DNA of 63,650 bases, counting the filler, from Reclinomonas americana ATCC 50394 (Eukaryota): the NCBI GenBank assembly GCA_048213135.1. It is 16 parts of 16 records of this genome, joined end to end, with 100 filler letters (N's around TTAATTAATTAA, not from the genome) between each part and the next. Parts side by side here need not be neighbours in the genome. Positions count along the whole stretch, not along the records: positions 46,849 to 54,199 come from AFZH01018838.1; 15 more parts are not named here. One strand, 5' to 3'. Both the position numbers and the translations under genes were made by a program. Shown piece after piece: positions 27,927 to 54,199 of this stretch. Each line of letters starts with the position of its first letter. The stretch's first letter is position 1. The notes below the pieces were generated by a model. It saw only the letters and a program-made list of their open reading frames with translations, made no database searches and was not told the DNA's origin.

Positions 27927-28785
27927 TTAAATTACATTATTCCAAATGTAAAATGTGGCTCCAAAATATGGAAAATCTGTGAGTGTTCCGTTGCTATTAC
28001 TCCATAAATCAATTCGATAGTCTGTTCCTGTGTATACCATATTAAATGTTACATTGCTAAAACTTGATCCATTTGTGAAATCACAAGTAACTTTACCATA
28101 CATATTTGATGCTGTCGGGAACAGAGAGCCTGAACCGTCTACACAAATATTATAACCCGCAATGTATCTATAACAACCAATTTGTGTGGTTGAAGGGCTT
28201 GATGTGTTAGCAAATGTTAAAGCTGTTCCACCATCAAACCTAATTACTTCACCGTGCCAAACATTACCACTACTTGCAAACCACATTCTAACAATTCCTT
28301 TCCATGGGCTTGAAAATCCACCACCAGATGCCCAAGAATATGAGCCACTGGAATATGTTAAAACACCGTTACTTGGCGTTGTTCCCGCTATTGATGTTAA
28401 TATACTATTCAATGGTTGTTTCTCTGAATCTAGTTCATTAATGGCATTTTGTACAGTAACAGCTGATATATTTCCAGCTGGTACATTAGTGACTTGTGAT
28501 GCTGTATAATCTCCATTAGCACTAGTTATATTTCCGATTCTATTAAAAACAGTCCTTACAGCATCAGTATTATCTACTTTATCATAACCTTGAACACCAT
28601 TAGATATGCACCAATCTCCAACACTAAAAGATATACCGAATTGTGTTCCGCCATTTGTAACAATCCAGTAATACCCCAAATTAGAACTACCAGCGGTCGG
28701 TAATGCAGGGGAATCATTTTGTGCATCCCATGTTCCTTGATATTTGACATTACCAAGTAAACTATCATTAATTTGAGACAATGGG
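27927..28785 (-). CDS. phage tail-fibre-like protein, C-terminal part
   Basis: YQGTWDA, GDWCISNG..KVDNTDAV..VF.R.G.I....GDY and PAGNISAVTVQNAINELD are modules I recognise from bacteriophage fibre/structural proteins. Open to the gap. Confidence 0.65.
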
Positions 28786-28885
28786 NNNNNNNNNNNNNNN
28801 NNNNNNNNNNNNNNNNNNNNNNNNNNNNNTTAATTAATTAANNNNNNNNNNNNNNNNNNNNNNNNNNNNNNNNNNNNNNNNNNNN

Positions 28886-29894
28886 GACCCACTCGGTATC
28901 GATGGAAATGTAGCAAGGGATAAGTCACCACGAAAGTATTGTGATGTTGTTCCAGTTGTTATTGTGTTTTGTTTTCCAGATTGTAAACTAGAAATATTAC
29001 TATTAGCTGTTGTCATTTGACCTTGTAATGTTGTTATGTTACTATTAGCTGTTGCTATGCTAGATGTGTTTGATGATATATTACTATTAGCTGTTGTCAT
29101 TTGACCTTGTAATGTTGTAATGTTGCTATTAGCGGTTGATATGCTAGATGTGTTTGATGATATGTTACTATTTGCCGTACTCATTTGACCTTGTAATGTA
29201 GATATATTTGAACTATTTGTAGAGGTTGCTGAGGCTATTGAATTCAAACTATTATTACTAGTTCCATAGTTACTAACAACATCATTTGCAGAATGTATAT
29301 AACCAGAACCAGTATAGTTAATAGCTGAAATATTACCTTCATACACACTTAAAGACCCACAATTAACCTCATTACAATCAAGAATGTCACATTGAATATT
29401 GCCAGATGACTCAATAGATGTTGCATAAACTTTTGCCAAATGTGAGTCTCCTTCATCATTTGTGGCTATAGTTATATCACCATATAGTCCTGATAAATGA
29501 ATTGATTTAGCGTCAATATCTCCTGAACTATTAACGACAAAATCACCATTAGTTAATTCATTATCTTCAGTAGTATAAAGTGGTACCCAAACACCTAATC
29601 TTTTAACATAGATATCTTCAAAACTAGCTTCATTACCGCTAATATCATGGCATGTAACATCATGTACAGTCATATTACCTGTAACATCAATGTCATTATC
29701 AACGTCTAATGATGAGGCTATTAATTGCGTTGTAGCATGCATTAATGGGGCTACTACTGAGCCAGTTGTTTGGATAATAGGCAATCCAGCATTATTTGAT
29801 CCATCTAAATAAACAGTTACAGATTTAGGGTCTTCTTCATCATATAATCTAATGGCCTTTTCTGAATATAAATCACCAGTCAAGGTCCCACCAG
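28886..29894 (-). CDS. fibre-like protein fragment with trimeric coiled-coil repeats
   Basis: Open across the whole contig. Begins GGTLTGDL, has beta-rich repeats, then 28-aa (84-nt) repeats TANSNITTLQGQMTTANSNISSNTSSI and KQNTITTGTTSQYFRGD. Confidence 0.7.
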
Positions 29895-30124
29895 NNNNNN
29901 NNNNNNNNNNNNNNNNNNNNNNNNNNNNNNNNNNNNNNTTAATTAATTAANNNNNNNNNNNNNNNNNNNNNNNNNNNNNNNNNNNNNNNNNNNNACTTTA
30001 TGGGTTTTCTACGAGGTTGAAAGAGATGTTGCCCTTGCTGAAAATGTTATCCGTGTTTTCTAAATAGTTTGACGTGATATGTATCATTCTAAGTATCATT
30101 ATTGATATTTACAATGTGATGCCA

Positions 30125-30198
30125 ACTCCGATGAACACTCCGATGACAACTCCTATGACGACTCCGATGATCGGAGTGGTGATCGGAGTTCGGAAACT
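30125..30198. repeat. palindromic array of 12-bp iterons
   Basis: ACTCC(G/T)ATGA at 30125, 30137, 30149, 30161, then inverted TCGGAGT at 30171 and 30183 (plus degenerate TCGGA at 30190). The centre is ACTCCGA-TGA-TCGGAGT. Confidence 0.85.
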
Positions 30199-30509
30199 AT
30201 TAATATCTCTAGGACCATCTTCTTAGGATCTTGATGTTTTATTGTGATTTTATAATTCTCATCTATAGGTTCTTTCTCTATCTCTTTTGGTGGTTCTGTC
30301 TTCTCAGGCTCTTTTGGTGGTTCAATCTTAGGTGGTTCGATATTCAACCTACTAATATGATATTTCGATGCTAAATGCCTTTGTAAATGGACTCGAGCAA
30401 ATTTTTTTTTACATGAGTGACATTCTATTTTCTCAAGCATTTTTGTCATAATCTTTTCTTTATTCTTTTCATAATAATTTTTTGCATACTCTGTTGAATT
30501 TGTGACCAT
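30153..30509 (-). CDS. viral C2H2 zinc-finger protein
   Basis: EYAKNYYEKNKEKI...CHSCKKKFARVHLQRHLASKYH followed by EPPK repeats; typical small zinc-finger of virophages, PLVs and NCLDVs. Confidence 0.75.
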   Translation of the reverse strand: MVTNSTEYAKNYYEKNKEKIMTKMLEKIECHSCKKKFARVHLQRHLASKYHISRLNIEPPKIEPPKEPEKTEPPKEIEKEPIDENYKITIKHQDPKKMVLEILIVSELRSPLRSSESS

Positions 30510-30617
30510 ATATATATAGTATAGAAATTATTCTTTATATATAGTACGCATAAATAATTAATGAAAAATGGTTTAAAGAATAATTAATATCTTATATATA
30601 TAATATAATATATAGAA
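30510..30617. promoter_or_regulatory. divergent viral promoter
   Basis: TAAAGAATAATT followed by a TATATATA tract precedes the ATG on both strands (inverted copies at about 30526-30537 and 30574-30585). Confidence 0.6.
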
Positions 30618-33600
30618 ATGAAAACTTCTGTTATTAAAAATCTGGTTAATGGCTTGTACTCAAAGAATCTGTTATATAGTAACTTGAGAAATAATATTTT
30701 AAAATCAGTCGATAATTATTCCACATTAAGGTCTAAGAAAAATAAGACAGCATCAGATAAAAAAACACTTGTTAGATATGAGAGTGCCTTAAAAGATCGT
30801 CTTATATTGTTAAATGATTTGAAGAAATACAAAGGTCGCAAGGTAAAAACACTCAAGGACGCACGTGATAATATAATTACAGGTATATACAATGAAAATT
30901 TACCATCAACAAATGCTATTGAAAATTTCAACTCATCAGCAACATCAAATCACAAGAAAAGGGATGAATTGGACAAAGATAAAATTAATAAACGTGTCAA
31001 AGCTGAACATTATATGACATTAGATAATATCAAAGCAAAATATGGAGATGCCATTTCCAATTCATGGAAGAATGTAAGCCCTATTGAAGTAACAGAGCAA
31101 AATGAAAAATTAATTGTTAATAACATGTTGGGATTATTATCAAGTTCTGAAAAGGTCTCAGCAAATACAACTATATTTATTCAATGGAAATTGAAATACA
31201 GTGATGAAGATTATAGATATATGAAACAGCCATTTAAGTTTGCATTGAACGGTAAAAATGTAAAAGAGTTTGTTGCATATATTAGAAAAACTGTTCCTGA
31301 GAAAATCAATAATCTCACAAGCAATCCACAAAATGAAGTCTATGAAGTCAGCATTGTTGCGTTTAGATTGTTGATTGTAAAGACCCCAACTGCTGGAGGA
31401 TGTGATGGTGATTACCACAGAATTAAAATAGATAATGTTGTATTGGATAGTGTAAAGTCTGTCAAGAATAACTGTTTATCTGCATGCATAACACATAAAT
31501 TAAAAGAATTAGATAAGAACTATGTTAAACCAAATGTAAATAAATTCAGGGCTGATTGTGGATTTGAAATTGGAAAACCTATTGATATTAGTGAATTAGA
31601 TGTTGTTGCAAATTATTATAAATGTATTATTGTTTTACATGACAGTATGGGAGAAGTATTGAGTAAACATGGTAGAGAAGGACATCAGATTAATATTTGT
31701 TTCAGATATGGACATTACTATCTTATCAGTAACATTGATCCTAAAATATACAAATATTGCAAGAAATGTTGTATGCATTATTTGAAAGTACATACATGTA
31801 ATTCAACCAGATTACGCGAAATGGAACACAGGAGAAAACAAAAGGGACAAATATCAGTATCAAGCAAACTTAAAAAGAAACCTTTGAATATTAACAATAA
31901 TATATTCTTTGATTTAGAAACATTCGGCTTAGATGGTTATGAAACAGATAATTTTTCAAATCATCAAGTATATGCATGTGGTTTATGGAAAGATGGAGAA
32001 TATAAACAGAAATATGGGAAAGATTCAATTGATTTATTAACAGATGAAATTAAATCAATTTATTACGCGGATAATAAACTAAAGAAAGACAACAAGAGTT
32101 ATAATATATGTGCATATAATGGAAGTGGATTTGATTTCTATTTCTTAGTTGATATACTGATTAGCAAAGGTGCATATATTGAACCATCATCTTTTATTAT
32201 TAATCATGGTAAGTTAATTAGTTTTAAATTCAGATATGGTGGACAAAATAATAAATTGTGTAGAGTGTGGGACTTATATTTGTTCTTATTATCATCATTA
32301 AAAGATGCTGGTGATGCATTTGATATTCCGAAGGAGTTGAAAAAGATGGACTTTGATCATGAAAAAGTTAAAACATGGGATGATGTTATTAAATATAAAG
32401 ATGAGGTTGAACCATATCTTAAAAATGATGTATTGGGATTCAAGCATATATTTGAAGTTTTCTCAACATTTATTTATGATACATTCAAAGTACATATCAC
32501 TGATTTCTTGACATTGTCTCATATGACCTATCATCTTTGGGTTTCACAAAATAATTTCAATATATATTTGCCAAGTTATGAAGATTATAAATTTATTTCA
32601 CGAGCAATTTACGGCGCTAGATGTTATCCTATGCAGAAGAAATACATATCCAAACATTATGATGAAATAATAAATGCTAAAAGTGATGAAGAAAGAAAAC
32701 AAATGTACAACAAAATGGAAGATTTCATTTTCAATGGGGATATTGTATCATTGTACCCATCATCTATGAAAAATAAATATCCTGTTGGAAAGTCTAGATG
32801 GTTGACAAAAGAAGAAATTCAAAGTATTAATCTGAAAAATATCCAAGTTGGTGTTTATGAAATAAGTTATATTTGTAATAAGAAAATATTAATTCCAATC
32901 TTACCAAAACATACAAATAATGGAGGATTGTTATGGGATTTGCATGATGGAGAGGGAGTTTATACAAGTGTTGATATAGAAAATGCTTTGAAATATGGAT
33001 ATCAAATTACAATTAAATCAGGTATGGTGTGGGATGAAACTCAATCGGTATTCTCTGATTATATTGATAAAACATTTAAGATTAAGAAACAAGGTGATGA
33101 GGAATCAAACAAAGTATTGAGAGCATGTGGAAAACTTTTGATGAATGCCTTGTATGGAAAATGTCTTCAGTCAGCCATTATTTCAGATACAAAAATATGT
33201 AACAATTTGCAAGATGTTTATGATTTTATGCAAACAAATGAAATCAGTGATTGGACAAACTTTGGTGATAAAATAATGTTAACTGGAGAAACACTTGATC
33301 AATATAAACATTCTAAAGTAAATAAACCAAGACAATTAGGCGCTTTTATTCTAGGTTATTCAAGAAAGATTATGTTAGATTCAATGAGTAAAATTGATCC
33401 TACATTAAATACACATTTCTTTACATATAGCGATACAGATTCTCTACACGTTCCAAATGAATTAATTAGTAAGACAAGAGATCTTTTAGGAGAAGATTTA
33501 GGTATGATGAACAATGATATTAAAAATGGTGGACGCATCATTAAAGAATTTTGCATTAGTCCTAAATGTTACATGTATGTATATATTGATAAAGATGGAC

Positions 33601-33839
33601 ATGTTAAGACAACTATGAAATGTAAGGGTATTACTTCAAAATATTTATTCCCTGAATTATATTATGATGATAGTTTAAATAATTTAGATAAGGTAATTGA
33701 AATGAAGGGATTGAAGAAATATAGAGATGGTAATTTCAGTATTAGAAATTGTAAACAAACAAGATCATTTAATAAAACCGAATATGATAGAATGGATTGT
33801 ATAGATGGTTGTTATTATCCCAAAGGCTATATTTTCTAA
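30618..33839 (+). CDS. polB: protein-primed family B DNA polymerase (1073 aa) with N-terminal TP-like and vOTU-like regions
   Basis: Exo I FFDLETF, Exo II AYNGSGFDFYF, Exo III YLKNDV; polymerase motifs DIVSLYPSSM, KLLMNALYGK, YSDTDS, PKCY, KCKG. Intact ORF. Confidence 0.95.
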   Translation: MKTSVIKNLVNGLYSKNLLYSNLRNNILKSVDNYSTLRSKKNKTASDKKTLVRYESALKDRLILLNDLKKYKGRKVKTLKDARDNIITGIYNENLPSTNAIENFNSSATSNHKKRDELDKDKINKRVKAEHYMTLDNIKAKYGDAISNSWKNVSPIEVTEQNEKLIVNNMLGLLSSSEKVSANTTIFIQWKLKYSDEDYRYMKQPFKFALNGKNVKEFVAYIRKTVPEKINNLTSNPQNEVYEVSIVAFRLLIVKTPTAGGCDGDYHRIKIDNVVLDSVKSVKNNCLSACITHKLKELDKNYVKPNVNKFRADCGFEIGKPIDISELDVVANYYKCIIVLHDSMGEVLSKHGREGHQINICFRYGHYYLISNIDPKIYKYCKKCCMHYLKVHTCNSTRLREMEHRRKQKGQISVSSKLKKKPLNINNNIFFDLETFGLDGYETDNFSNHQVYACGLWKDGEYKQKYGKDSIDLLTDEIKSIYYADNKLKKDNKSYNICAYNGSGFDFYFLVDILISKGAYIEPSSFIINHGKLISFKFRYGGQNNKLCRVWDLYLFLLSSLKDAGDAFDIPKELKKMDFDHEKVKTWDDVIKYKDEVEPYLKNDVLGFKHIFEVFSTFIYDTFKVHITDFLTLSHMTYHLWVSQNNFNIYLPSYEDYKFISRAIYGARCYPMQKKYISKHYDEIINAKSDEERKQMYNKMEDFIFNGDIVSLYPSSMKNKYPVGKSRWLTKEEIQSINLKNIQVGVYEISYICNKKILIPILPKHTNNGGLLWDLHDGEGVYTSVDIENALKYGYQITIKSGMVWDETQSVFSDYIDKTFKIKKQGDEESNKVLRACGKLLMNALYGKCLQSAIISDTKICNNLQDVYDFMQTNEISDWTNFGDKIMLTGETLDQYKHSKVNKPRQLGAFILGYSRKIMLDSMSKIDPTLNTHFFTYSDTDSLHVPNELISKTRDLLGEDLGMMNNDIKNGGRIIKEFCISPKCYMYVYIDKDGHVKTTMKCKGITSKYLFPELYYDDSLNNLDKVIEMKGLKKYRDGNFSIRNCKQTRSFNKTEYDRMDCIDGCYYPKGYIF

Positions 33840-33850
33840 CCATATAATAT

Positions 33851-34551
33851 ATGGATAGTGTTATTAGAAAGGTTTGGGTTGATAATAATTACCCAAGTTT
33901 ATTAAAGTTATTTGATATAATGAAAAAACAAGGATATAAAATAACTGCATCACAGATAAAAGAATTTTTAAACAAACAAGAATCAAATCAGATAGGTAAA
34001 CAATATAAGAAAAGTAAGAGTTTCAATACTATTTTGGCGCCTAGCCCTGCCTATAATATGCAAATGGATATTATGGTTTATAATAGATTTGAGTTTAATA
34101 AGTATAAATATGTTTTATGTTGTATTGATGTATATAGTAGGAAGGCATATTGTGAGCCTATGACAAATAGGGAAGGTAAAACAATTTTAGAAAATGCCAA
34201 GAAAATATTTAATAAGTTCGGTAAATTCCCTATTAATTTAAACACAGATAATGAATTTAATTTTAAAGAGTTTGTTGATTATCTTGAAAAGAACAATGTT
34301 AAATTATATTTGTCATTTGCTGATGATATTATTGATAGTAAGAACAGTATTATTGAAAGATTTCATAGGACATTAGCTGGAATGATGAAGAGATATAGAG
34401 ATAATACCAAGGATTATAATTGGAGTAGTTGGATAAATAAAATAGTTGATTCATATAATAATCAATATCATAGGACTGTTGATGCTACCCCTAATGAAAT
34501 ATGGAATGGAGCCGAACCAAATCAGAAAATAAATAAAGTTGAGAGTAAATA
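33851..34551 (+). CDS. retroviral-type (rve) DDE integrase, 3'-truncated by the gap
   Basis: MQMDIM (D), YVLCCIDVYSRKAY, LNTDNEF (D), IIERFHRTL (E), YNNQYHRTVDATP; Polinton/mavirus-type integrase. Confidence 0.93.
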
Positions 34552-34651
34552 NNNNNNNNNNNNNNNNNNNNNNNNNNNNNNNNNNNNNNNNNNNNTTAAT
34601 TAATTAANNNNNNNNNNNNNNNNNNNNNNNNNNNNNNNNNNNNNNNNNNNN

Positions 34652-46848: not shown

Positions 46849-47579
46849 GTCAGCATCGTCGTCGCCACCACCGCCGGCGGAGAAACGCAGCAAGCAGGCG
46901 ACAGAAGAGGAGGAAATGCTGGAGGATGGAGTCGAGGAGGACATGTCACACCCTGTTGTCGACGACGACGATGAGGAGGATGATGATGACATGCTGGGGT
47001 TGCCGAAGCAGTGGGTGGACCCCACTCAGTGTTGCGTTCTGGGGCATGACCTTCTCTCTCTCTCTCGCTCTCTGTTGCTGACTACAGTGTGCACCATTAG
47101 ATCGACTGGTGAAGCGAGCTCCGTTGCGCGGGCCTGCGCGTCGCGGCACCATGTACATTCGCCATCGCAGTAGCGTGCATGCGCTGTACAATCGAGTGTG
47201 TCGGCTGTTTGTGGACCACGGGTCTGTTTGCTTTGCATTTCTTGGTCGGAGAAACTTGTGTGTCGTCGCTCATTGTGTGCTTGCCATAAGGCTCAAGTCG
47301 GTGCATGTGCACGCGCTGGGCGCGGCGGTGAACAAGGCTGTGGATGTGGCGTTGATGGTGCGCGATCGTGCGCAGGTGGGCAAGGTGGAGCTGCGGCCGC
47401 GCACCACGACCGAGGTGGTGATTGATGATTTCGAGCCACTGGTCGATGTTGCGTTGCGCCACTCGTCTCCTCACCTCTTCTGTTGTGCTGCTGACTCTCC
47501 GTTGCACGCACAGGGCTTGCCACCGCTGTCGCAGCGACGATACACCACCGGCATGCACATTGAGATCGCGCGTGTGTGA
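46849..47579 (+). CDS. POP7: RNase P/MRP subunit Rpp20 (Alba fold)
   Basis: YRLVKRAPLRGPARRGTMYIR...VHVHALGAAVNKAVDVAL...TTTEVVIDDFEP...RRYTTGMHIEI; three introns. Confidence 0.85.
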
Positions 47580-47977
47580 TCGGATGAGAAAGGAGAGAGA
47601 CAACGAGCTGGCCGAGGTGACGACGACGACGAATCAGGTTCACTCGGTCGCGATTGAGACGACGAGCGCTCTCAACACCAACACACACACACACACATAT
47701 ACGCACGTACGCACGCACGCACGCGCAGCGTGTCGCACGCCAGACGACACGCTCACCACAGAAAAAACGAGTGTCGCGACAGCGGCCCGACGAGGCCGCA
47801 AGTAAAAAAAAGAAAAACTCAAGAAGAAGAGCGAAAGAAATGCATATATTTGCCGAGAACGAGACGGTTTGTCGGGTCACGAGCAACCGATATGTAGAGC
47901 GCGAGAGAAAGAGGGAAGGGAGAAGGGACAGATACAGCACACACACACACACATACAAGGGACAAGCGACATCTGAA

Positions 47978-49298
47978 TTACTCAGACGGTGCGGCGAACA
48001 CGTAGGGAGCCGAGGCGGCGTACACGTCCCTCAGCGACTTGGGTGGGCGACCGAGAATGGTCTGCACGTCGTTGTTGGGGCGCGGGCCCTTGTTGTTCTT
48101 GAACAGGTCCAGCAGCTCCACCATGCCGCGTGCCTGCCACTCCGGCATGCCCATGCCCTTGAAGCTCTCCACCACGGCATTCGGGTCCTCCACCGACTCG
48201 TAGGTGATCTGCGAGTTGGCCAGCTCCGACAGCGTCGACGCAATCTCCGCGCCCGTCAGCGCATCACTCGACGTCAGCGTGTACGTCTTGTTGGCAAACT
48301 TGCTGCGGTCGGCCTCGGTGGCCACCTTCCAGATGCACGCACCCACATCCTCCAGCGAGGTGCCGGTGATGGAGCCCTGGCCGAGGAACATGTACAGCTT
48401 CTTGGAGGCCTTGATTCCCTCCGCAAAGCCGTAGTAGTTCTCGAGGAAGAAATCTGTGTGCGGTGTGAGGAGGAGCGACACACACGGAGAGAGAGAGAGG
48501 GAGGGGGGGAAGGAAAAAGTTACCGAGACGGAAGATGCTGTAGGGCACATGGCAGGCCTTGACGGCATTCTCGGCCTTGGCGAACTGGCGCTGGAAGAGG
48601 ATGCTGCCGTCCTCGAGAGCGCCGGGGACGGAGATGAGGATAATGTGCTTGCACGCCGACGAGCGACCCGCTGCCGCCGCAAAGCGCTCCGCAATGTCAC
48701 CGCGGTCCTCGGCACCCTGAACAAAGCGAAGGAGATGAGCATGTAATATATATGTGAAGGGAAGCAATTTCCCTTCTTTGTTGCTCACTCACCGGGGGGA
48801 TAATGACCAAGACCTGCGCGCCCGCAATGGCGGCATCGATGGAGGCGGGGACGCGGTCGTCGACTTGCACGACATTGGCACGCGGAAGCGCGTCAGTGAT
48901 CTTGTCGGCGCTCTTGCTCACATCGCGAGTCGACACAGTCACGTCGACGCTGTAGTCCTCCGCAAAGGCCTGCAGTGCGGCCTTGCCGACGTAGCCACTG
49001 CCGGAGGTGATGAACACTGTTGACGGGGAGGAGAGTGAGTGGGAGAGAGAGGGCCCGACGGAAAATGTCCATGTGCGCGGAGAAGACACAAACACAAACA
49101 AACAAAGCAAGCTGCGTTGCACATTGTGCGGTTACCTTTGGTGGGGAGAGGAGCAGAGTTGTAGGCGCCTGCAGTGGTGACGAGCAGCGAGAACAAAAGG
49201 TAAGTAATGCATGACGGGGCGGAGTAGTTTTTTTCAAGTGTTTGTTTGTTCTGCGTGTGTTTGTGTCAAGAGCAACTAACGCGTGCGTACTAACCCAT
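47978..49298 (-). CDS. NmrA/atypical-SDR NAD(P)-binding protein, probably N-myristoylated
   Basis: Spliced start MGAYNSAPLPTKVFITSGSGYVGKA; EDVGAC, KTYTLTS, DVQTILGRPPKSL. Confidence 0.85.
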
Positions 49299-49426
49299 GG
49301 TGGTGGTGGTGGTGTGTGTGCGGAGAGTGAACTCGAAGAAAAAATGATGAAAAGTGGGACGGGACGAGGGACACGTGTTTTCAATGCGCCCTTCGTCGTA
49401 ATCGCTCACGCACGCTCCTGTGTCTC

Positions 49427-49668
49427 TCAGAACGAGATGACAGTGTCCGGCGGCTGAGTAGTCGTCGTGGTGGTCGACGTCGAAGTGGTGGTGGTGGTGG
49501 TGGTGGTGGTCGGAACTGCAAGAAAGAGGAAACATCAGCATGCATTTCTTCCTACTTTGCCTCGTCGTTGTATGGTACGCAACTCTGCTCCCAGCTGGTG
49601 TAGGTGCCGGCAGTCGGCCAGGACTGAGTGCCCGTGGTGTCAAGGTGGAAGCCGCCGAGGTAGTTCAT
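49427..49668 (-). CDS. SWEQ-family microprotein 1 (57 aa, two exons)
   Basis: Exons 49668-49584 and 49515-49427: MNYLGGFHLDTTGTQSWPTAGTYTSWEQ|IPTTTTTTTTTSTSTTTTTTQPPDTVISF*. Confidence 0.7.
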
Positions 49669-50417
49669 GATCTACGAATGCCCAACAACGTCAGTCAATA
49701 CAGCCCGTGTGAATCTGGACACACGTCGAGCCAGCGAAAGAGTATATAACGCCCTCTCTCTCACGAATAGCACAAAGGAGAAGAGCGAGCGAATGAAAGG
49801 AGAAGAGCGAGAGGGAGAAAAGAGAGCGAACGAACGAGGGAATGGCGGGTGATGTCAACACACACACTGCTCTCTCCGATGCCACCCCGATGTCGCAACA
49901 AAGCACACAAGCACACACGTGATAGGTGCACACATCAGCTCTCTGTCTCACACAGTCTCGTTTCGTTCTCTATCGACACGAGGGAGTGAAACTGGACATG
50001 ATGATGATGATGAGGCAAGAAAGAGTGAGCGGCGCTATCCGTTGCACAAACACACACAGGGAGAGGGAGAGAGAAAGAGAGAGAGTGATCACCACAGGAG
50101 GCACACAGAGAGAGAGGAGAGTGGGAGAAGGCGATCAAGTAGAGAATCATGATTGTTTCGGCTCTTTTCTCACGACAAACAGATACGCGTCACTGCTCTC
50201 ACTCTCTCACACACGGCGCGCATAGGAGTGGAACATAGGTGTGCCTCTATTCCTCCAAGCGACCCACGCTGCTCACCAGAGGCACAGGAAGAAACTCGTG
50301 ACCGATACGTCCTGCGACGTTTAGATGCATTCCCCTGACCCTTTCTCATTTCATTTCAGGTTGTCACGCGCAGCGTTGGTTGTGATTGGATCCCCACTGG
50401 CGCGTTTTTTCTCCCCG

Positions 50418-50631
50418 TTACCATGCCATTGGAGTGCCGGAGCTGCCGCTGTCGACTGCCGGTGCGGGTGACGCGGGGGCGGCGGTCGCTGGCTCGCCAG
50501 TCGGGACTGCAGGGAACAGGTGAGGACGAGAGGGGGAGGAGGAGAGTGGGGGGAATAGGCGACGGACCTTGCTCCCAGCTCGAGTAGATGTTCTCGTAGT
50601 AGCACGTCGTCTCAGTGTAGCCGCCAGACAT
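50418..50631 (-). CDS. SWEQ-family microprotein 2 (50 aa, two exons)
   Basis: Exons 50631-50568 and 50506-50418: MSGGYTETTCYYENIYSSWEQ|VPTGEPATAAPASPAPAVDSGSSGTPMAW*. Confidence 0.65.
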
Positions 50632-51272
50632 GATGCGTGCGTTCCTGCAATGGCGAAGAGTGAGTGAGGATGGGGGAAGGGAAGGAGGGGGAGGAATGGG
50701 GGGAAGGAGGGAGGGGGAAGGAGAGAGGTGAATCAGAACGCGTGCATGAGAGGCAACAAGAAAGAGAAGAGACAAATGAAAAGAGAGAGATAACACACGA
50801 AAGAGGAGAGGAGGAGAGAGAGAGAACGAGGCAAGGGGAGCGGTAAATCGAACAGGTGCATGCGTGGCAACAAGAAGGACAAGAAACAATAGGGGAGAAG
50901 AGAAAGAGAGAGAGAACGCAGCGAGAGGCGAAGAGAAAGGAGAGAGAGAGAGAGGACATAACAGACAAAGGGAAGAGGAGAGGAGGAGAGAGAACGCAGC
51001 GAGAGAGAACGAGGCAAGGGGAGCGGTAATCGAACAGAGGGACAAGAAACAAGAAGGGAATGAAGAGAAAGAGAGAGAACGCAGCGAGAGGGAAGAGAAA
51101 GACAGGGAACGAGAGGGGGAACAAAAAAGAAAGAGAGAGAGGGCATAACACATTAGTGAAAGAGGAGAGATGGAGAGAGAACGCAGCGCGACAGAAAGAG
51201 GCGTGGAGAACGGTGAAACAAAATGTGTGCATGAGAGGCAAAGAAAAAGACAAGACAGATGAAGGGGAACAG

Positions 51273-51304
<32 letters not shown>

Positions 51305-51353
51305 GAGAGAGAGGAGGGAGGAGAGAACGCAGCGAGAGAGAATGAGACAGAAG

Positions 51354-51467
51354 GAGACAAGGAGAACCTTGGAAGAGCAGGTGTGCATGAGAGACTGAGA
51401 CAAGGAGAACCTTGGAAGAGCAGGTGTGCATGAGAGACTGAGACAAGGAGAACCTTGGAAGAGCAGG
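51354..51467. repeat. 43-bp tandem repeat x2.7
   Basis: gagacaaggagaaccttggaagagcaggtgtgcatgagagact at 51354, 51397 and 51440 (partial). Confidence 0.9.
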
Positions 51468-52448
51468 CGCGCAGAAGAGGCTGCAGAGAGAAGGAGAGCG
51501 GAGACTCGCGAGTATGGGGAGGGAGGCAGCAAACATCGCGTCTCGCTTCGTGTAACAATGGACAGAAGGAGCGACAAAAGCCCACGGCGACGAGCTACAA
51601 AGAGTGGATCCTCGAGCATGAAGACACAGCAGAGGAGAAGACTGTTGTGGATGACGAGGACCCAGAATGAAAAAGTGACAGTGCAGGCGAGAAAACAGTC
51701 GCTCTGACGTTTGAATGAAGATGCCCACAAGATGGTTCATGACTCGAAGGGAAGGGGCTGCGAGGGAGCAAGATATGGCTCACGAATGCGCTTGGGGGAA
51801 CAAGTCATCAGAGAGTGCGACTGAAGTCTTTTAAGCATGACGCCTGCACTCTCATCTCTCTCATCTCATCTCTCTCTCTCTTGCCGTCTGTCACGAGTCA
51901 TTACAGGCCACACCACACAGTGCACGACATAGCTGCTGACGAGTGCTCTCTCTCTCTCTCAACGGAAGAGAACAAGTCATCTGATAGACGCTTGATGTCC
52001 ACTGCGAAACGACGACACAGCGCACACACACAGAGAGGAATGCACTGCATAAGTGCTCTCTCTCTCTCTCTCTCCCTCTCCTCTCTCTCTTTCTTTCACA
52101 CCACCATCGTGTTCGGTGCGAGAACTATGTGTGAGCGAGTGAAAAGACAGCCATGGTCGCCTCCCCTCCCAAGAAAACACACACACTCTCACACGCACAC
52201 AGCAGCCTCATGTGCGCGGGTAGTCACACAGACAGAGAGGAGGCGTCCTTTGCTCAACCAACCTTACAAAAACAAATGAACGACGAGTGAAATTTTGCCG
52301 CACCAATGGCGCCGGCCGTGCTTGCTAACGATGCATGACCCTCTAGAGCTCTTATGCGTGTGCACCAAGAGACATGCAGAGCAGTTGATCAACACACACG
52401 ACTAGTTTTACAAAAAAGAACATTCCTTTTTCTTTCTCTTCTTTTCTC

Positions 52449-52711
52449 TCAGAACGAGATCGTAGTCTCGCCTCCCGTCGTAGTGTTGGTCGTCGTTGTC
52501 GTCGTCGTAGTCGACGTTGTTGTGGTCGTCGTGCTGGTGGGGGCTGCACACACACACACACACACACAAAGAAAGAAAACAGTAATCAATACACGTTGCG
52601 CACACCAACTTTTTTTTGACATGTGGAGAAAGACGCACTCTGCTCCCAGCTCAGATATGAGCCCACCACCGAGGTGCTGCCGCCATTGAGTGCGTTTGCG
52701 ATGACCTCCAT
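52449..52711 (-). CDS. SWEQ-family microprotein 3 (55 aa, two exons)
   Basis: Exons 52711-52639 and 52543-52449: MEVIANALNGGSTSVVGSYLSWEQ|TPTS(T-rich)GGETTISF*. Confidence 0.7.
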
Positions 52712-53383
52712 GATGATAATGCTGCACACAGACACACACAAAACCCCCAGTCAAAAAAGTTGGACAGGCGCTGTGATTGACTGTGTGGTGAACGACAGCA
52801 TGAAGCAGACAGACAGAGAGAAGGAGAAAGAGTGTGTGTATGCGCGCGCGTGCGTGAGAGAGGAACAGGAGCGCGCGCGATGGAGATGTGCGTGACATGA
52901 CACAAAAGAAGACACTCTCGCGCTCTCTGTTCTCTATCTTGCTAATGTCTTGCGTCTCTCCTTGCCGCCCAACAACACGCCGAGAAACACACGCGCAGAA
53001 GACGACAATCACACACAATTGGCGCGAGACCGAATCTCTGCACCAATAAGCACCCCCACTCTGCGTCGCCTAAACACGCACACAAGAGGCACGCAGGCCC
53101 AGACAGAGAGGCAGAGAGAACAGAGAGGGGGCCGCAGATGGCGCACAAACCTTGCGTGAAAATTGTGTGAGTGAGTGAAATTTCACGCTCAACGTTCATC
53201 CTTTGTCCCAACACGAGGAGCGCGCGCGCGTGTCCCTGGCTCACGCACACACGCAGACACACACATACGCACACTCTCCCCCACGCACAACGACCAAGGT
53301 GAGCGGGCGCGCAGAGAGAGCGAGGACGTTGACATGTCCGTAGTTAACGCTCACTTGTCGTCGCCTGCCTGTCAAAGAGAGAG

Positions 53384-54001
53384 ATGAGCGACGAGGACGA
53401 CTTCTGGGACCGCGTCGAAAGCAATGGCCTCGCTGGTGATGACGTGGAAGCGCGAGCAGCAAACGGCAGCCTGCGACTATCGCGACCGAGCTCGGCGTCG
53501 ACGACAATGTCAACGCGTGTGCGCACTCCGCGTCTCGATCTCAACATGCGTGCGCTGCGTGCGATTGAGGGCGTGGAGGGCAGCCTCGAGGGAGTCGCCA
53601 TTGAGGAGTACTTGAGTGAGGAGACTCTGGTCTGTACACACGCACACAAAAGTCAGTTTCCTTGTTGCGCACGTTCGCGTTGTTGATGTTTGTGTTTGCT
53701 TGCTGGGTAGCGTGAGGTGACGGGTCAGATGGATTTGTCGTGTGTGCGCAAGCTGGAGCTGGTGATTGATATCACGGAGAACTCGATTGGGAATCTGGGA
53801 GTCAAGCTGCCGAACTTGAGGGAACTCAAGCTCAGCAATAGTGTTGTGCATTCGTTGAGGTGGGTTGCGGGCAAGGGTGTACTACGGAAACGATGTTGTC
53901 GTGGTGGTGTGGGGAACAGGGCGCTTGTACAGCGTGGGGTTTCTGGCTTGTCCTCATTATCACTCGTCGACTCTCTCTCCCCCTGTCCTCGCGACTTGCT
54001 T

Positions 54002-54035
<34 letters not shown>

Positions 54036-54167
54036 CGTCCCTCCCTCCCTCTCCCTCTGCGCGCGCCGTTGCTCACCAAGCACTCTGCATCTGCTTTCGT
54101 CGGCAACAACTGTGCACACGGTTGTCGCCGCTCGCAGTGCGTGTTATTTCATGCACCATCTCTCTCT

Positions 54168-54199
<32 letters not shown>

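What the first reader, a model, noticed from the sequence alone, without database searches (positions are those of the whole stretch)
49427..52711. Tandem family of three hidden two-exon microproteins with a YxSWEQxPT motif
Seen: three co-oriented units, absent from the ORF track as whole proteins, share (i) an intron acceptor followed closely by ATC-ATG, (ii) a variable 21-28 aa first exon ending Y-[TSL]-S-W-E-Q, (iii) a phase-1 intron at exactly that point, and (iv) a second exon of 89, 89 or 95 nt encoding xPT, a Thr- or Ala/Pro-rich spacer and a hydrophobic-x-aromatic C-terminus (ISF, MAW, ISF). Conserved motif, intron position and spacer length despite divergent codons suggest selection. 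There is no signal peptide. Inference: a two-motif tether or adaptor peptide (WEQI/WEQV resembles an Atg8-interacting W-x-x-[ILV] motif, though copy 3 has WEQT), or a precursor-type peptide with a variable N-terminal core. I recognise no family.
Basis: partly seen in the sequence, partly recalled or inferred. Interest (0 to 1): 0.75.

Follow-up and report, generated by a model that had tools for sequence, protein, structure and literature searches.

The report
Three orphan lysine-free microprotein genes
Three small, intron-split genes in a row in an unidentified eukaryote are under selection to encode 50-57-residue proteins with no lysine or arginine, which likely work inside the cell as flexible clamps with two short binding motifs a fixed distance apart; no transcript, relative or partner has been found.

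Summary
Three minus-strand units share YxSWEQ, a phase-1 intron and a second exon of 89, 89 or 95 nt, giving products of 57, 50 and 55 aa. A second, syntenic copy of the locus (C3536, 88% identical) shows purifying selection: 8 of 122 synonymous against 4 of 355 non-synonymous sites changed (p=0.003), both exonic indels are in frame, and the splice sites are kept. None of the 162 residues is Lys or Arg. New here: two units have matching 26-nt ATG-free upstream elements ending in a splice donor, so they are probably separate genes with a non-coding first exon. The family is confined to this locus, and no relative was found in any protein, structure, DNA or literature search. The Atg8 reading is weak: the core motif holds in 2 of 3 copies and the xLIR pattern in 0 of 3. 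LC8 and WW readings fail. Best mechanism (inferred, 0.4): disordered cytosolic peptides with two motifs held 31-34 residues apart. No RNA data were available. The scan found this before on other DNA (e1-7449958, most likely the other haplotype).

The parts
53151..53176 (-). U3 probable non-coding first exon (26 nt, no ATG), followed by an AAG|GT donor at 53150
   Evidence: inferred, one mismatch in the other copy
52722..53150 (-). U3 probable 5'-UTR intron (429 nt)
   Evidence: inferred
52639..52721 (-). U3 first coding exon (10-nt leader, ATG at 52711, ends YxSWEQ + 1 nt)
52544..52638 (-). U3 phase-1 intron, 95 nt (77 in the other copy)
52449..52543 (-). U3 last exon: xPT, Thr run, C-terminal ISF, stop
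   Evidence: 2 synonymous changes and a 6-nt indel between copies
52263..52288 (-). U2 probable non-coding first exon (26 nt, no ATG), followed by an AAG|GT donor at 52262
   Evidence: inferred
50645..52262 (-). U2 probable 5'-UTR intron (1618 nt, largely CT repeats near its 3' end)
   Evidence: inferred
50568..50644 (-). U2 first coding exon (13-nt leader, ATG at 50631)
   Evidence: coding part identical in the other copy
50507..50567 (-). U2 phase-1 intron, 61 nt (55 in the other copy)
50418..50506 (-). U2 last exon: xPT, Ala/Pro-rich spacer, C-terminal MAW, stop
   Evidence: 3 of 3 changes between copies synonymous
49584..49671 (-). U1 first coding exon (3-nt leader after TAG acceptor, ATG at 49668); upstream exon not located (candidates near 49991 and donors at 49951 or near 49764)
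   Evidence: coding part identical in the other copy
49516..49583 (-). U1 phase-1 intron, 68 nt; GTTGCG donor, a type also used in this genome's dynein light chain gene
49427..49515 (-). U1 last exon: xPT, Thr run, C-terminal ISF, stop
   Evidence: 2 synonymous changes, one Thr/His codon, 3-nt indel between copies

Best explanation
These are three anciently duplicated genes under purifying selection for 50-57-residue, acidic, lysine- and arginine-free products, which likely act in the cytosol as unfolded clamps that bind a partner through two short motifs held a fixed distance apart. Shown: the exons, the phase-1 intron, the selection and the composition. Inferred: each gene is transcribed on its own from a short non-coding first exon, so the ATG after the acceptor is the first start codon; the Y-x-S-W-E-Q-x-P-T motif docks its Trp in one pocket and the C-terminal T-x-[IM]-[SA]-[FW]-COOH end in a second site; the Thr-rich or Ala/Pro-rich stretch is an extended spacer whose length matters more than its sequence; the variable N-terminal part tunes each paralogue. 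With no lysine the peptides would also resist ordinary ubiquitin tagging. The partner is unknown.
For: Coding and selected: 8 of 122 synonymous vs 4 of 355 non-synonymous sites differ between the two copies, p=0.003; 12 of 486 exon vs 18 of 195 intron bases, p=0.0003; 2 of 2 exonic indels are multiples of 3 vs 11 of 41 in non-coding DNA. Introns and flanks of the paralogues share little or nothing (z from -0.7 to 2.8 in 9 comparisons) while the motif, a Thr four residues before the last and the stop position align. Spacer composition differs (Thr vs Ala/Pro) but Trp-to-end length is 31-34 in all six products; the two copies tolerate 1-2 residue spacer indels. No hydrophobic signal stretch. Own 5' ends: an 11-nt word plus AAG|GT at the same spacing lies upstream of U3 and U2 and matches 3 times in 108 Mb, all at this locus, control 0; 0 of 144 unrelated segments give such a composite; neither leader has an ATG. 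The acceptors would need phase 0, 2 and 2 for an upstream coding exon, unlike the conserved phase of the coding intron. The last three residues fit the class II PDZ-ligand pattern (PMC2891790, passages).
Against: No transcript or protein evidence, and no partner. The leader pattern was defined after seeing these sites; a looser version is not clearly enriched genome-wide (45 matches off this locus vs 31 control, p=0.14); by plain 40-nt identity the best match to U3's element is another site at 52153 without a donor (27 of 40, reached by 4 of 144 controls); U1 has no clear counterpart. Acceptor-plus-ATG does not prove a start: the dynein light chain gene here has an internal exon that begins that way, preceded by a 15-nt micro-exon. 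In-frame upstream ATG-to-GT candidates exist in both copies (7, 14 and 4 for U3, U2, U1), one of them a moderately hydrophobic 27-codon stretch upstream of U2 (ATG 51536, weak donor). U2's last exon scores higher for codon use in the two other frames (11.7, 14.2 vs 9.7), and its stop lies in a donor-like site at 50421. A two-motif clamp does not itself require the total lack of Lys and Arg. The class II pattern is very common by chance.
Confidence: 0.4

Rival explanations
1. Self-assembling structural subunits (of a scale, coat, cyst wall, extrusome or similar): the aromatic, Gly/Ser/Thr-rich first half would stack into fibrils and the Thr or Ala/Pro stretch would project as a possibly glycosylated brush.
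For: Thr runs (22-23 Thr in U1 and U3) resemble mucin-type stalks (recalled). Unchecked scan notes list several other acidic or K/R-free tandem microprotein families in this genome, which could point to a shared structural use.
Against: No signal stretch and no upstream signal exon shared by the paralogues. One locus with three genes only. No Pfam match.
Confidence: 0.17
2. Leaderless precursor peptides: the variable N-terminal part is the core of a small modified or cyclic peptide, cut at or near the conserved Pro, and the fixed-length linker with its aromatic end is the follower that an enzyme grips.
For: Variable N-terminal part directly after Met, conserved Pro, conserved downstream length. 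Leaderless core-plus-follower precursors exist in fungi, where a prolyl oligopeptidase cuts after Pro (PMC12912989, passages). Both amino-acid changes in U3 between copies fall in the N-terminal part.
Against: No tailoring enzyme beside the genes. The part up to the Pro is 23-30 residues, much longer than the 6-10-residue cores shown in those passages. The most conserved stretch would lie inside the core, and the supposed follower is poorly conserved in sequence. U1 and U2 first exons are identical between copies, so no sign of rapid diversification.
Confidence: 0.12
3. Atg8-binding receptors or decoys in selective autophagy, using W-E-Q-[IV] as the interacting motif and the C-terminal end to hold cargo.
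For: Core W-x-x-[ILV] (PMC7297954, passages) is met in U1 and U2, with Ser/Thr just upstream. The genome has Atg8 genes (7 exon matches).
Against: U3 has Thr at the fourth position in both copies. The xLIR pattern matches 0 of 3. Invariant E, Q, P, T are not what the core motif demands.
Confidence: 0.11
4. The units are not whole genes but alternative last exon pairs, or internal exons, of a longer protein whose upstream part lies in micro-exons.
For: Micro-exons and an internal acceptor-plus-ATG exon occur in this genome (also the 4-nt first exon of the neighbouring NmrA-like gene). In-frame upstream candidates exist. U2's end resembles a donor.
Against: Phases needed upstream differ (0, 2, 2). 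Stops align in all three paralogues and are kept in both copies. Only 670 nt separate U3's ATG from the divergent LRR gene. ATG-free leaders fit U2 and U3.
Confidence: 0.12
5. Dead or chance reading frames.
For: No expression data and no relatives.
Against: Selection tests, codon use of the first exons (15.2, 8.2, 5.3 vs 99th percentile 1.9 and maximum 6.5 of 4522 overlapping non-coding windows), blind scan.
Confidence: 0.04

Closest known systems
Lineage-restricted microproteins from small ORFs that act through short linear motifs (general class; recalled)
   Same: Under 100 aa, intron-split, missed by ORF calling, under purifying selection, low-complexity spacer, short conserved motifs
   Different: No sequence relation found to any described family; complete lack of Lys and Arg and a fixed motif-to-C-terminus length are particular to this family
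Atg8-interacting motif (AIM/LIR) proteins (PMC5119064, PMC7297954; passages read)
   Same: W-x-x-[IV] with Ser/Thr upstream in an apparently unfolded context in U1 and U2
   Different: Thr at the fourth position in U3; Gln at the third position fails xLIR in all; conserved P-T follows
Leaderless MSDIN precursors of Amanita (PMC12912989; passages read)
   Same: Tiny intron-bearing genes, variable N-terminal part directly after Met, conserved Pro, downstream extension
   Different: No sequence likeness seen; much longer N-terminal part; the conserved block precedes the Pro; the extension is a low-complexity spacer; no enzyme or product known
LC8 (dynein light chain) binding motif (PMC6607443; passages read)
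   Same: Gln followed by Thr/Ile/Val and then Pro; LC8 is present in the genome
   Different: Glu at -1 and Trp at -2, both described there as unfavourable
Class II PDZ ligands (PMC2891790; passages read)
   Same: Hydrophobic-x-hydrophobic C-terminus in 3 of 3
   Different: A three-residue pattern with low specificity; no PDZ partner was looked for

Membership tests
Protein-coding small ORF gene | Purifying selection on the reading frame | tested here: met
Protein-coding small ORF gene | Spliced transcript and translated product | not testable with these tools
   no RNA holder listed
Atg8-interacting (AIM/LIR) protein | Core [WFY]-x-x-[ILV] at the conserved motif in all members | tested here: not met
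   2 of 3; U3 has Thr (definition)
Atg8-interacting (AIM/LIR) protein | xLIR six-residue pattern | tested here: not met
   0 of 3
Atg8-interacting (AIM/LIR) protein | Binding to Atg8 | not testable with these tools
   the motif spans the intron and Atg8 is present only as exon pieces
LC8-binding motif | Uncharged residue at -1 and no bulky aromatic at -2 from the Gln | tested here: not met
   Glu and Trp in 3 of 3 (definition)
WW domain (resemblance recalled for U2) | Match to the Pfam WW profile | tested here: not met
   0 Pfam families at E up to 10 for the six coding exons scanned singly; single short exons limit sensitivity
Class II PDZ ligand | Hydrophobic-x-hydrophobic C-terminus | tested here: met
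   ISF, MAW, ISF (definition); low specificity
Class II PDZ ligand | Binding to a PDZ domain | not tested
   no candidate partner
Leaderless RiPP precursor (MSDIN-like) | Tailoring enzyme linked to the genes | tested here: inconclusive
   neighbours are Alba/Rpp20, NmrA-like and LRR; an unlinked enzyme is not excluded
Leaderless RiPP precursor (MSDIN-like) | Short core ending at Pro with a follower conserved in sequence | tested here: not met
   23-30 residues up to the Pro; extension differs in composition (comparison)
Leaderless RiPP precursor (MSDIN-like) | Modified mature peptide | not testable with these tools
   needs mass spectrometry
Secreted mucin-like or wall protein | N-terminal signal peptide | tested here: not met
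   best 9-residue hydropathy 0.39, 0.64, 0.92; no shared upstream signal exon; no dedicated predictor was run

The most novel reading that the evidence does not exclude
The genes encode leaderless precursors of an undescribed class of ribosomal peptide products in a microbial eukaryote: a variable N-terminal core, a W-E-Q-x-P processing site, a length-measured linker and an aromatic C-terminal grip for an unlinked enzyme. The other K/R-free microprotein families noted in this genome would then be parts of a larger hidden peptide repertoire that trypsin-based proteomics cannot see.
Probability: 0.1. Interest if true: 0.8.

Novelty: new member of a known kind. Interest (0 to 1): 0.38.

Why it matters
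It is a clean case of a selected gene family that ORF calling, homology search and standard trypsin proteomics would all miss, since the products have no Lys or Arg. If the clamp model holds, it adds a new pair of linear motifs with a built-in ruler. If the precursor model holds, it would extend ribosomal peptide products to a new group of eukaryotes. At present it is an orphan family known from one locus of one genome, without expression data or function, and the scan had already noted it on what is most likely the other haplotype.

Tried and rejected
Expression: no RNA holder was listed for window 47500-53500, so no reads could be laid. Relatives: alignment of the first coding exons (6 rows; first row padded with flanking in-frame DNA) gave no candidate among 11-86 aa proteins, 0 of 326 candidates at E up to 10 among 87-2000 aa proteins, and 1 hit among 1.84 billion representatives (E 2.7e-5), a 600-aa tandem-repeat translation that shares only a few letters of the motif (judged spurious). 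No Pfam family for the six coding exons; one PDB match at E 0.79, an antibody light chain; no usable Atlas hit for two queries. All these searches used unspliced pieces, so relatives of the whole products could be missed. A spliced-form DNA pattern gave 0 matches in viral contigs and 3 in metagenome contigs, which lie off-frame or inside unrelated long ORFs. Own genome: each first exon finds only itself and the second copy; a loose pattern gave 36 matches vs 38 control; C7449 is a GA-rich repeat; 3 of the 8 off-locus matches and 6 of the off-locus matches were read and lack the gene structure. Rfam on 46849-54199: one match below its threshold, outside the units. Structure: the model of the padded first exon was a low-confidence pair of helices (pLDDT 66) and half of the query is not coding, so it was not used. 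Self-assembly job, four copies of U1's first exon plus two intron-encoded residues: no answer (score 0.03). Lineage: no mitochondrial tmRNA match, with a control that rang nowhere; COX1 gave 3 matches, two on one large contig and one on a short contig, not followed up; the NmrA-like neighbour has only 33-34% identical hits among longer proteins. The organism stays unidentified; 'jakobid' comes only from unchecked scan notes. A bacterial promoter scan was irrelevant. Literature: six exact motif strings, 0 papers; follower peptide + RiPP + protist, 0 papers; some searches were seen as listings only and gave nothing on this family; led to two papers read as passages. No supplements were read. The NmrA control and one training exon were out of frame; they were redone.

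Full report
Setting. The window is a gapped scaffold of an intron-rich eukaryote; the finding lies on contig G000:C3371, window 46849-54199. The three units run on the minus strand between an NmrA-like gene downstream and a divergent LRR gene upstream, with an Alba/Rpp20-type gene beyond. The organism was not identified. It has dynein light chain and Atg8 genes.

Observation. Only the phase-1 reading gives x-P-T in all three and stops that align. U1's unusual GTTGCG donor is also used in the dynein light chain gene (read from the sequence). The motif pattern has 8 matches off this locus in 108 Mb, so three in 3.3 kb is not chance (post hoc). In a blind scan of 252 kb, 2 of 262 starts with a two-exon model were free of Lys and Arg, and they were U1 and U2; U3 failed the acceptor filter in this haplotype only.

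Selection. Contig C3536 holds a syntenic copy, 87.9% identical over 7306 columns, with the same flanking genes. Paired contigs recur in other searches, so it is most likely the other haplotype (inference). Between the copies, 8 of 122 synonymous and 4 of 355 non-synonymous sites differ (p=0.003); two of the four come from one Thr/His codon inside a repeat (p=0.0004 without it). Exons differ at 12 of 486 bases and their introns at 18 of 195 (p=0.0003). Both exonic indels are multiples of three, against 11 of 41 in non-coding DNA. The NmrA-like control has 4 of 225 synonymous and 0 of 660 non-synonymous changes, so the units are somewhat less constrained than an ordinary enzyme. Codon use of the first exons is coding-like (15.2, 8.2, 5.3 against a non-coding 99th percentile of 1.9 and maximum of 6.5); U2's last exon does not discriminate between frames by this test, but its 3 changes are all synonymous in the proposed frame. 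Introns and flanks of the paralogues show little or no likeness, so the duplications are old.

Gene starts. An acceptor followed by ATG does not prove a start: the dynein light chain gene has such an internal exon behind a 15-nt micro-exon. I therefore looked for upstream exons. In-frame ATG-to-GT candidates shared by both copies number 7, 14 and 4 for U3, U2 and U1; they have nothing in common between paralogues, and the phases needed differ (2, 2, 0). The best is a moderately hydrophobic 27-codon stretch upstream of U2 with a weak donor. Against that, U3 and U2 each have an upstream element of an 11-nt word, a 26-nt ATG-free stretch and an AAG|GT donor at the same spacing. It matches three times in the genome, all here, and 0 of 144 control segments give such a composite. 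Caveats: it was defined post hoc; a looser form is not clearly enriched; a similar word without a donor lies at 52153; U1 has no clear counterpart. The word resembles an initiator element (recalled, not tested). The most economical reading is three separate genes with a 5'-UTR intron.

Products. No Lys or Arg in 162 residues, against 11% in this genome's ordinary exons (p about 2e-6 on the 111 non-Thr residues); 3-5 acidic residues each; no hydrophobic stretch. Conserved: a Gly-Gly near the start (and the products), Y-x-S-W-E-Q-[IVT]-P-T, and T-x-[IM]-[SA]-[FW] at the C-terminus. The distance from Trp to the end is 31-34 residues in all six products although the spacer is Thr-rich in two genes and Ala/Pro-rich in one.

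Mechanism. Conserved ends with a spacer kept in length but not in sequence point to a two-site binder. I commit to unfolded cytosolic clamps (0.4). Rivals are structural subunits (0.17), leaderless peptide precursors (0.12), parts of a longer protein (0.12), Atg8 receptors (0.11) and dead frames (0.04). Disorder, location and binding are all inferred from composition; none is shown.

Comparison with what is known. No relative was found, with the limit that only unspliced pieces were used as queries. The exact motifs appear in 0 papers of the library searched. The Atg8 core motif holds in 2 of 3 and xLIR in 0 of 3. The LC8 motif fails at two positions. The C-termini fit the unspecific class II PDZ pattern. 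Leaderless fungal precursors are an analogy only. These five papers were read as passages; no supplements were seen.

Earlier notes. An unchecked note, e1-7449958, describes three two-exon, K/R-free genes of 50-56 residues on another piece of this genome. The lengths fit the C3536 products (56, 50, 53), so it is most likely the same family and not independent evidence. Other notes list further small acidic or K/R-free gene families in this genome; I could not test them.

Verdict. A real, selected, orphan microprotein family at one locus. New member of a known kind; interest 0.38, higher if expression and a partner or a processed product are shown.

Noticed in passing
window 27927-34603: AT-rich stretch (27-32% GC) with a type B DNA polymerase and an integrase core ORF, like a Maverick/Polinton element (name recalled).
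   Followed up: no
window 49298-47978, minus strand: NmrA-like gene with a 4-nt first coding exon and a Met-Gly start, a possible myristoylation site (inference); only 33-34% identical hits among longer proteins.
   Followed up: partly
L060:2631-1495, minus strand: Dynein light chain gene with a 15-nt micro-exon and an internal exon that starts with acceptor, three bases and ATG.
   Followed up: partly
window 52153-52114, minus strand: A second element resembling U3's upstream leader (27 of 40 bases) but without a donor, conserved in both copies.
   Followed up: partly
window 51558-51453, minus strand: About 100 nt nearly identical in both copies, with an ATG-led 27-codon frame that could splice in frame to U2 through a weak donor; followed in this copy by short direct repeats.
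   Followed up: partly
window 49649-49603, minus strand: U1's first exon holds a second S-W-P-T stretch eight residues before the main motif, possibly an internal duplication.
   Followed up: no
window 46849-47450, plus strand: Alba/Rpp20-type gene converging on the NmrA-like gene.
   Followed up: no
G000, paired contigs such as C294/C301 and C3371/C3536: The assembly seems to hold both haplotypes as separate contigs and also bacterial-looking contigs, so copy counts may be doubled.
   Followed up: partly
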